A stretch of DNA of 63,227 bases, counting the filler, from Kipferlia bialata (lineage: Eukaryota), in the NCBI GenBank assembly GCA_003568945.1. It is 5 parts of 5 records of this genome, joined end to end, with 100 filler letters (N's around TTAATTAATTAA, not from the genome) between each part and the next. Parts side by side here need not be neighbours in the genome. Positions count along the whole stretch, not along the records: positions 42,231 to 56,195 come from BDIP01000875.1; 4 more parts are not named here. The stretch is one strand, 5' to 3'. Both the position numbers and the translations under genes were made by a program. Of the stretch, positions 46,134 through 48,023 are shown in pieces. The notes beneath the pieces were generated by a model, which worked only from the letters and a program-made list of their open reading frames with translations, was not told the origin of the DNA and made no database searches. Numbering within the stretch: the first letter of the stretch is position 1; every line of letters begins with the position of its first letter.

Positions 46134-48023
46134 CTATATGACGGGTGAGCTGGACGATGGACGCCACCACTTGAGAACCCCTGATATAAGGGAGTACAGA
46201 GAGAGAGAGAGAGAAGTAGAAGGATAGAAATGGAAGAGAGACTGAGTAAAGTCCAGTATACCAGTTGTCTCACCTGCACTGGGCACGATGTTGACAATGT
46301 GTAGACATATCAGAGAAAATACAAAATAGTGCAGTAGATTTGGTGGTAACAGCATAGATAAGCAATGAAATAGTATTAGTATATAGCTATATATGAGTAT
46401 TGTGTATTCTCACCTGCACTGGGCATGATGTTGACAATGAGGTCCAGCGTGACCTGGAATGAGGGAGAGAGAGAAGTGAGGAATACATTACAACAGAGAA
46501 ATCATAGGAGGATGATAGATAATGATAGAGAGAAGACACTCCAGAGACATGGAAAGAAAGGGAATTTCACAATGCATGGAGAGTATTCCATGTAGATACT
46601 CTTCATATACCTCAGACTCCTCGAGAGCTCCAATGTTGTTGGACTCTGCACCATACTCAGCCTCTATCCTAAGGTCAGAAATATATGAATGATACGCAGG
46701 ACAGTAACTCATCAATACTATATAAATATATGTATATATGTAGATGAAATAAAATATGTGGACTCTACGCCATACTCAGCCTCTATCCTAGAGAGACCAA
46801 TACATGCATATATAGTGTTAATACAATTGAAGCATATCGACCAATTCCTTGCTCAGCCTATGTGTCTCCCCGCTCCTCACATCAATCAATACTACATACA
46901 ATAATATCCATACACACATATATATACATATATCTATATACACACATATATCCATATATATATATATATATATATGCCCACCTCTTGCTGAGCCCCTCTG
47001 TCTCCCCCCTCCTGACAATCTCATCGTGCACAATGGATGTGGTGCCATCGTAGGAGGCAGTGACAGCTACATACAACTGGGGTTAAGACAGTAATATATA
47101 TATATGTGTGTGTATGTATCTATGTATATACACTATGCACAATGGATGTGGTGCCGTCATAGGAGGCAGTGACTGCAACATAGAGCTGGGGAAAAGAGAG
47201 AATACTACATATATATATAAAGACTATGTATGAATCTGAAACTATATATGTAGTATTGAGTCCCTACCTGTCAAACGTTCCAGTTGAACAGGGCATCACA
47301 ACACACTTATATGTATACCCACATATCATCTAAACACATAAATATACAGTATCCAATATATATATATCTATATATATTTATACATACATACACACATATT
47401 TATACATACATAAACCCTTCTCTACCTGTCAAACGTTCCAGTTGAACAGGGCATCACTATACATACATCAATAATTATATACATATCATCTGTACATATA
47501 TATAAACAGTATCTAATGAATATATGTATATATACACATATCTACCTGTCTGACATTCCAGTTGAACAAGGCATCGAGGTCAGACTCCAGCTCAAAGGAG
47601 ACCTCTGATGGTAAGGGTGTAGAGAGAGAGAGAGANNNNNNNNNNNNNNNNNNNNNNNNNNNNNNNNNNNNNNNNNNNNNNNNNNNNNNNNNNNNNNNNN
47701 NNNAGACAGACTCCAGCTCAAAGGAGACCTCTGATGGTAAGGGTGTAGAGAGAGAGAGGGAGAGAGAGAGAGAGAGAGTCAGACTCCAGCTCAAAGGATA
47801 TCTCTGTATGAATGGGAGTATGTGGGTGAAGAGAGTAGGGGAGAGTGAAACAGTAAATGACGGAAAGACAATATAATGTATGTATATATATGTATTGTTG
47901 AAAGACAATATAATTATTGTGTATATATACATTCATATATACACACTGATATACCTAGCATCTCCGAGGGTGTACTGATATATTCATATATACATACATA
48001 CACATATATATATAAGTAAGTAT

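What the first reader, a model, noticed from the sequence alone, without database searches (positions are those of the whole stretch)
47026..47575. SPCS3 acceptor-side echo: 17 codons, identical peptide, 6 codons recoded, branch point absent
Seen: the real exon start (47076 downward) is cttaaccccag|TTG TAT GTA GCT GTC ACT GCC TCC TAC GAT GGC ACC ACA TCC ATT GTG CAC. The echo (47185-47135) is cttttccccag|CTC TAT GTT GCA GTC ACT GCC TCC TAT GAC GGC ACC ACA TCC ATT GTG CAT. Both encode LYVAVTASYDGTTSIVH. The echo's acceptor lacks the branch-point A motif. In the same intron two donor echoes (~47265 and ~47424) share three synonymous changes plus AGA>TGA, so one echo was re-duplicated after it became non-functional. 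Inference: capture first, then silencing and secondary amplification.
Basis: partly seen in the sequence, partly recalled or inferred. Interest (0 to 1): 0.75.

Follow-up and report, generated by a model that had tools for sequence, protein, structure and literature searches.

The report
Introns archive alternative exon versions
In this stretch of a free-living protist genome half of the examined introns carry partial, apparently unused copies of the neighbouring exon's end, and the copies differ from the working exon mostly by silent changes, which likely means they came from other working versions (alleles) of the same gene.

Summary
The echo is real: 47185-47135 encodes the same 17 residues as the SPCS3 exon start at 47076, with 7 silent changes in 6 codons and no branch motif. 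A DNA contig spans it at flanking depth; the main RNA contig uses 47076. It is one of 125 such copies in 63 of 126 introns (protein labelled Kipferlia bialata). The pattern matches avian 'exon stuttering'; this scan also noted it in sea urchins. Two results go beyond that. (1) Branch-point loss is not the rule: 37 of 49 echo acceptors keep motif plus AG, against 43 live (P 0.11), so 'capture, then silencing' fails as a general account. (2) 136 of 214 differences are silent; dead copies beside a selected exon allow at most 39-50% (P 4e-10 at kappa 2); pN/pS is 0.16, not 0.5. A clonal-array simulation did not reach this; copies taken from alleles about 15% diverged at silent sites did. Best reading: out-of-register repair or recombination between diverged alleles leaves a formerly working exon end in the intron. 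No second allele or isolate was seen, so that step is inferred.

The parts
47135..47185 (-). Acceptor-side echo: copy of the first 51 nt of the SPCS3 exon, 7 silent changes; AG kept, branch motif absent
   Evidence: inside DNA contig 46986-47293 with 0 differences, depth 431
46982..47076 (-). Working SPCS3 exon (95 nt); branch-motif A at 47083
   Evidence: RNA contig piece ends at 47076; peptide in P0001
47077..47134 (-). 58-nt spacer between echo and working acceptor; 72% identical (gapped) to the 58 nt before the echo; tandem period 109 nt
47426..47455 (-). Donor-side echo 1 of exon 47604-47546 (3 silent changes, AGA>TGA, GT kept)
47268..47297 (-). Donor-side echo 2, identical to echo 1 over 34 nt
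47546..47604 (-). Working upstream SPCS3 exon (59 nt)
   Evidence: RNA contig runs from it into the sequence of exon 48183-48131 (loose end at 47606); P0001
47707..47730 (-). Acceptor echo of exon 47604, identical, next to a 68-N gap; a further remnant at 47798-47778
   Evidence: not bridged by a listed contig
46848..46881 (-). Donor-side echo of exon 47076-46982, more decayed (2 silent, 6 non-silent; GT lost); begins 9 nt after the acceptor echo ends in exon coordinates
46759..46787 (-). Acceptor echo of exon 46668-46611 (1 silent, 1 non-silent; branch motif absent)
   Evidence: bridged by a DNA contig
46274..46299 (-). Donor echo of exon 46453-46414
   Evidence: bridged by a DNA contig
47955..48100 (-). 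Two donor echoes of exon 48183-48131 (48100-48084, 47973-47955)
28168..40794 (-). CwfJ-domain (CWF19-like) gene, echoes in 26 of 32 introns: the largest share of the statistic
   Evidence: my exon chain equals deposited protein P0002 at 759 of 759 residues; 63 silent to 24 non-silent in the 31 exons matched whole
110..11739 (+). LRR-containing gene, echoes in 13 of 38 introns, e.g. four donor echoes 2950-3313 with 7 silent and 2 non-silent variants
42502..45497 (+). Gene whose RNA contig joins 44289 to 44586 and whose record lengths leave no room for the echoes at 44340, 44480, 44958, 45054

Best explanation
The echo is a genomic, head-to-tail partial copy of the exon start that the main transcript skips, one of about 120 in this window, and its silent-only divergence likely arises because echo and working exon descend from different working alleles that were brought side by side by out-of-register repair or recombination. 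Shown: tandem geometry, presence in DNA contigs, skipping in the main RNA contig, excess of silent differences, largely intact splice signals. Inferred: a break in or near an exon is repaired by copying 50-200 nt too much from a diverged homologue (or a new tandem copy is later uncoupled from its neighbour by ordinary recombination between alleles); the resident, formerly working exon end is left in the intron with its splice site; the spliceosome keeps choosing the site nearest the other end of the intact exon; unequal exchange multiplies some echoes; they then decay for a short time (pN about 0.03) compared with the divergence of the alleles (about 0.15 at silent sites).
For: Silent share 136 of 214 unique differences against a ceiling of 0.39-0.50 for dead copies (P 7e-13 to 4e-5; codon positions 3:1:2 = 153:40:21). 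Holds for one echo per cluster (107 of 159, expected 62-83), away from breakpoints and splice sites (97 of 138), in single-echo clusters (66 of 105), without CpG-context changes (94 of 163), and in the gene whose frames equal a deposited protein (63 of 87); wrong frames give 17 and 31 of 214. Silent differences are symmetric in GC/AT (50:56) while non-silent ones run GC to AT in the echo (39:15; Fisher P 0.003). pS and pN are uncorrelated across echoes. Echo acceptors differ from live ones by about 3 edits in 14 nt yet 35 of 43 keep motif plus AG; decay simulation gives 24.7 (P 0.0004). Intron flanks are close to unrelated (0.62-0.67 against 0.60-0.63) while amino-acid-changing sites are 97% identical. 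Acceptor and donor echoes of one exon meet within 3 nt in 7 of 21 exons (null 2.7, P 0.007, post hoc). Toy simulation: clonal arrays reach pN/pS <= 0.30 with pS >= 0.10 in 0 of 296 settings; diverged-allele origin with silent divergence 0.15 gives pS 0.18, pN 0.03. The species is reported as probably diploid (PMC5874029 passage) and metamonads as lacking canonical NHEJ and leaning on homologous repair (PMC8516963 passages).
Against: No second allele was seen: the DNA run shows no other letters over the stretch, and the eight listed contigs (5,042 nt) match exactly, though contigs drop variants. No second isolate or related locus was found. Silent divergence near 0.15 between alleles is very high. 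Divergence of the acceptor and donor echoes of the same exon is not correlated (rho -0.01, n 21), as a single two-sided event would predict, though counts are too small to reject it (P 0.27). Dispersion of silent counts is 1.5, between one fixed donor (1.0) and a free coalescent (2.4). SPCS3 alone is not significant (12:10). Private differences in multi-echo clusters (30:26) exceed neutrality but not the dead-copy ceiling (P 0.06-0.25). The simulation is a toy with equal mutation rates in exon and echo.
Confidence: 0.6

Rival explanations
1. Plain tandem duplication from the same chromosome; the echo is dead from birth and the silent bias comes only from selection on the working exon, helped perhaps by a higher mutation rate in the working exon.
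Against: Predicts at most 39-50% silent and pN/pS 0.5; observed 64-70% and 0.16-0.27 under all five mutation spectra tried; would need a roughly 3-4 fold faster silent rate in the working exon 100 nt away; does not explain kept splice signals.
Confidence: 0.12
2. Turnover inside a clonal lineage: echoes are now and then promoted to the working position by deletion or conversion, so only protein-preserving echo variants survive, or echoes are under indirect selection.
For: Arrays of 2-5 copies in 24 of 81 clusters; four-gamete conflicts in 3 of 5 informative site pairs show shuffling among copies.
Against: 57 of 81 clusters have one echo and show the same excess; simulation minimum pN/pS 0.39 at pS >= 0.10; by argument, indirect selection strong enough to matter would itself need very high population diversity.
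Confidence: 0.12
3. Echoes are translated at some level (micro-exons, alternative sites, polymerase jumps between repeats), so selection keeps their amino acids directly.
For: Splice signals mostly intact; this echo has a common donor 3 nt after it that would give an in-frame 54-nt micro-exon, 47185-47132; contigs drop rare forms.
Against: Use of the echo site gives a frameshift or stop in 86 of 100 cases; donor echoes lack acceptors; RNA contigs of two genes carry the live letters and skip echoes; the bin 46875-47183 holds exactly the 91 nt of the live exon (447.6 = 1519.8 x 91/309); stops occur in 4 of 121 echoes.
Confidence: 0.1
4. Assembly artefact: pieces of the two haplotypes of a diploid placed in tandem.
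For: Short-read assembly of a reported diploid; all three internal N gaps lie in echo clusters; halves that tile an exon are what a misplaced haplotig could give.
Against: Contigs built separately from public reads bridge five echoes, including this one, with 0 differences at depth 431-456, equal to flanking contigs (428-457); arrays of up to five different copies cannot come from two haplotypes. The run may be the source of the assembly, so it is a re-assembly, not an independent sample.
Confidence: 0.05

Closest known systems
Exon stuttering on avian dot chromosomes (Hron et al., bioRxiv 10.1101/2025.09.16.676548 = PMC12954441; abstract and passages read; supplements not seen)
   Same: A lateral part of an exon with its donor or acceptor is copied in imperfect tandem into the adjacent intron; source at the exon border; exon part median 36 nt there, 29 nt here; introns rich in simple repeats; coding region intact.
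   Different: 3.4% of dot-chromosome introns there, 63 of 126 introns here; median 4 copies and spans of kilobases there, mostly one copy and a period near 107 nt here; tied to GC-rich vertebrate chromosomes there, a metamonad with AT-rich introns here; the word 'synonymous' does not occur in that text, so the codon-preserving divergence is not described; length polymorphism shown there, untested here.
Human F7 intron 7 37-bp VNTR with silent 5' pseudo-sites (PMC1557585; abstract read)
   Same: Repeat spans the exon-intron border; intact downstream donor copies stay unused while the most upstream one is chosen.
   Different: One locus, donor side only, near-identical units; here genome-wide in the window, both sides, units diverged.
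Intron gain by tandem genomic duplication (PMC3265369, PMC4974935; search listing and start of abstract only)
   Same: Local duplication involving splice-like sites.
   Different: There the duplication makes a new intron inside an exon; here it lengthens an existing intron (median 252 against 94 nt) and no new intron appears in the RNA contigs or deposited proteins.
Tandem mutually exclusive exons (recalled, no call)
   Same: Neighbouring copies that keep the peptide and differ at silent sites.
   Different: Echoes are exon ends only, with one splice site; none of 125 hits spans a whole exon.

Membership tests
Exon stuttering (avian) | Exon fragments copied into the adjacent intron, starting at the exon border | tested here: met
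   110 of 125 hits start within 3 nt of an exon end; 125 adjacent against 1 of 520 control
Exon stuttering (avian) | Repetitive introns, imperfect local tandems | tested here: met
   dinucleotide runs in 39% of intron windows and 64 of 108 breakpoints; 1-5 copies per cluster
Exon stuttering (avian) | Extensive intron-length variation within the species | not testable with these tools
   only one sample listed; no related loci
Exon stuttering (avian) | Coding region left intact | tested here: met
   exon chains without echoes are open and equal P0001 and P0002
F7-type pseudo splice sites | Intact duplicate sites unused in the main transcript | tested here: met
   RNA contigs skip intact echo sites in the gene at 42502-45497 and the echoes of SPCS3; minor use cannot be seen in contigs
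F7-type pseudo splice sites | Pseudo-sites become active when the authentic site is mutated | not testable with these tools
   needs a minigene
Intron gain by tandem duplication | Duplicated AG/GT segment spliced out as a new intron | tested here: not met
   echoes lie inside introns bounded by the live sites; GT near the end of only 12 of 49 acceptor echoes; RNA joins live to live
Mutually exclusive tandem exons | Whole-exon copies with both splice sites | tested here: not met
   0 of 125 hits reach both exon ends
SPCS3/SPC22 (the host gene) | Pfam PF04573 above cut-off | tested here: met
   68.9 bits, cut-off 25, profile 57-161 of 173

The most novel reading that the evidence does not exclude
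Kipferlia exons are replaced piece by piece: a broken exon is patched from a diverged homologue and its old, once-working halves stay in the flanking introns with their splice sites. The introns of one genome are then an archive of other alleles, showing about 15% silent diversity and ongoing recombination between homologues in a free-living fornicate, and a spliceosome that picks sites by exon, not by intron, in a genome of 100-nt introns.
Probability: 0.35. Interest if true: 0.82.

Novelty: new variant of a known kind. Interest (0 to 1): 0.64.

Why it matters
Exon stuttering was described in 2025 as a rare feature of bird dot chromosomes; here it affects half of the introns examined in a distant protist, and the copies carry a coding-type signature that dead copies should not have. 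If the allelic reading holds, diversity and recombination (hence the open question of sex in metamonads) become measurable from a single genome, with tens of thousands of echoes if the rate extends to the 124,912 introns reported for the species. It also offers a natural panel of intact but ignored splice sites for studying site choice in a reduced spliceosome, and warns that ab initio gene models will read echoes as micro-exons, as my own first pass did.

Tried and rejected
No whole genome is held, so counts cover this window only. Run search: two runs of one sample, no holder on record as RNA; X2 is guessed RNA, but it shows a GT-AG joint (46451-46609). Metagenome scan with P0001: 275 pattern matches, none confirmed. 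Protein searches gave one protein each. Earlier notes by place and by sequence: nothing. Branch-point depletion as the silencing rule: rejected. Splicing of the acceptor echo to the donor echo around the live exon: rejected, no matching GT/AG at the breakpoints. CpG decay: silent CpG changes are symmetric (19 live-only, 22 echo-only) and the excess stays without them. Echo rank in the array does not predict divergence. Acceptor and donor echoes co-occur overall (Fisher P 0.002) but not clearly within genes (P 0.09). Rows dropped before counts: 4 of 125 hits (two at exon 53331-53418, whose frame conflicts with the next exon; two weak internal hits). Left out of the exon set: gene A beyond 12078, 42231-42501, the small gene near 59400-60000, and 14081-28055. 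Literature: ten searches; none listed a description of these copies in Kipferlia or any protist; the genome paper's main text has 0 hits for 'duplicat', 'tandem', 'exon', 'microsatellite' (supplements not read). Subscription papers are not covered.

Full report
Observation. On the minus strand, 47185-47135 and 47076-47026 encode the same 17 residues with 7 base differences in 6 codons, all silent. The live acceptor has a YTNAY motif with A at -7; the echo keeps AG but not the motif. Two donor echoes of the upstream exon lie at 47455-47426 and 47297-47268; they are identical over 34 nt and share three silent changes and AGA>TGA. The host gene is SPCS3: a window peptide retrieves one protein, labelled signal peptidase 22 kDa subunit of Kipferlia bialata, which matches PF04573 at E 5e-19. 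The window is five contigs joined by N linkers; the finding lies on 42231-56195.

Is it in the DNA, and is it used? A contig built from public DNA reads spans 46986-47293 with no difference at depth 431; seven other listed contigs nearby have 428-457. Five echoes are bridged by 31 nt or more on both sides. The run may be the one behind the assembly, so this is a re-assembly and not a second sample. A 625-nt contig from a run guessed to be RNA (depth 1520) has a piece ending exactly at 47076, a GT-AG joint at 46451-46609, and record offsets that fit the live exons only; the depth of bin 46875-47183 equals 91 nt of that contig, leaving nothing on the echo. A second RNA contig joins 44289 to 44586 and its offsets (167 nt for three exons) exclude four echoes, three of which keep their AG or GT. 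Contigs drop rare forms, so minor use is open.

The echo is one of many. I built exon chains for nine gene segments (130 exons, 126 introns). The chain of the 32-exon CwfJ-domain gene equals the deposited protein at 759 of 759 residues and SPCS3 matches P0001. Scanning each exon against its adjacent introns gave 125 hits in 247 pairs; 520 control pairs gave 1. 49 hits copy an exon start and all lie upstream; 61 copy an exon end and all lie downstream; 15 are internal remnants; none spans a whole exon. That is the geometry of head-to-tail duplication across a splice site. 63 of 126 introns carry an echo; the exon part is 29 nt at the median, the period 107 nt (47-213), with no preference for multiples of three. 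Prevalence differs by gene, from 26 of 32 introns to 1 of 14.

Silencing. Echo sites are therefore mostly intact yet skipped where RNA could be seen. The site used is always the one nearest the other end of the intact exon, which suggests exon-anchored choice (inference); the F7 VNTR study reports the donor-side version experimentally (PMC1557585 abstract). Use of an echo site would shift the frame or bring a stop in 86 of 100 cases, so decay of such transcripts could also hide them.

The silent excess. If an echo is dead from birth and only the exon is selected, silent differences arise on both branches and amino-acid changes on one, so the silent share cannot exceed 2S/(1+S), 0.39-0.50 for S of 0.245-0.33, and pN/pS is 0.5. 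After dropping 4 of 125 hits, 136 of 214 unique differences are silent (P 3.5e-10 at kappa 2; 3.6e-5 at kappa 30), at codon positions 3:1:2 = 153:40:21. One echo per cluster: 107 of 159, expected 62-83; pS 0.187, pN 0.029, ratio 0.16. The excess stays in the alignment cores (97 of 138), in single-echo clusters (66 of 105), without CpG context (94 of 163) and in the protein-verified gene (63 of 87). Eight of 22 echoes with three or more differences are wholly silent, 0.9 expected. Against: SPCS3 alone gives 12:10, and differences private to one echo (30:26) do not beat the ceiling.

What the differences look like. Non-silent differences run GC to AT in the echo (39:15), as decay would; silent ones do not (50:56; P 0.003). 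pS and pN do not covary across echoes. Echo acceptors have drifted about 3 edits from the live one but keep motif plus AG more often than decay allows (35 of 43 against 24.7). Intron flanks beyond the signals are near unrelated, only 3 of 107 being 90% identical; identical young copies may have been collapsed, since all three internal N gaps sit in echo clusters. Echo and exon thus look like two versions that both worked for most of the time since they split.

Mechanism. A toy simulation of one clonal lineage with births, expansions, contractions, conversions and loss never reached pN/pS <= 0.30 at pS >= 0.10 (0 of 296 settings, minimum 0.39); copies drawn from alleles 0.15 apart at silent sites and decaying briefly gave 0.18, 0.03, 0.17. 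I infer that echo and exon come from different alleles: either a break is repaired by over-copying from the homologue, leaving the resident end behind, or a tandem copy is later uncoupled from its neighbour by recombination. The first version predicts that, where both sides are echoed, the two echoes are halves of one old exon: they meet within 3 nt in 7 of 21 exons (null 2.7, P 0.007) and within 5 nt in 9 (null 4.1, P 0.005); this was noticed first and tested afterwards, and the divergences of the halves are not correlated. At the SPCS3 exon the halves are 9 nt apart. Context from papers: k-mer peaks suggest a diploid genome (PMC5874029 passage); metamonads lack Ku70/80 and DNA-PKcs and are thought to rely on homologous repair (PMC8516963 passages). 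Missing: any direct sight of a second allele (no other letters) or isolate. Dispersion of silent counts (1.5) does not separate one past hybridisation from a diverse recombining population.

Comparison. The structure works like, and meets the testable features of, avian exon stuttering (10.1101/2025.09.16.676548, passages), reported for 190 of 5,572 dot-chromosome introns; population length variation could not be tested. That text does not contain the word 'synonymous', and a search for the term listed only bird papers. It is not intron gain by duplication and not a mutually exclusive exon pair. I found no description for Kipferlia in ten searches or in the genome paper's main text; supplements and subscription papers were not seen.

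Verdict. Observation confirmed; the branch-point account holds for this echo but not for the class; new variant of a known kind. Interest 0.64; 0.82 if the allele-archive reading is confirmed.

Noticed in passing
47185-47132 (-): The echo plus 3 nt ends at a common donor (GTATAT) and would form an in-frame 54-nt micro-exon; my ab initio pass picked it, the RNA contig does not contain it.
   Followed up: partly
48740-48131 (-): The deposited SPCS3 model lacks the N-terminal membrane segment (Pfam match starts at profile 57).
   Followed up: partly
30601-30623, 47636-47703, 61716-61717: All three internal N gaps fall inside echo clusters, which suggests near-identical young copies are collapsed or broken in the assembly.
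   Followed up: partly
36722-36759, 37559-37595, 38982-39015, 39863-39983, 43008-43040, 55415-55447: A 30-40 nt intron 3' module ((TC)n, then a fixed run up to the branch motif and AG) recurs in several genes on both strands: possibly a spreading acceptor module.
   Followed up: no
14081-28055: This contig has no echoes in the self-comparison, few TA runs (18 against 195 in the next contig) and long open frames, one with an AAA_5 domain (E 6e-5): an intron-poor region or another source.
   Followed up: partly
53331-53418 (+): Exon whose frame does not connect to the next exon: a missing base, another acceptor or a broken gene; left out of the counts.
   Followed up: partly
60269-63146 (+) against 28168-40794 (-): Echo density differs strongly: 1 of 14 introns in a gene that looks like a P-type ATPase (name recalled from motifs, no call) against 26 of 32 in the CwfJ-domain gene.
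   Followed up: no
all curated acceptors: Branch motif sits 7-9 nt before the exon in most introns, like the fused branch point and 3' site of diplomonads (PMC6679479 passages).
   Followed up: partly
13981-14080, 28056-28155, 42131-42230, 56196-56295: Linkers of N runs around a 12-nt stop cassette: the window is five joined contigs.
   Followed up: yes
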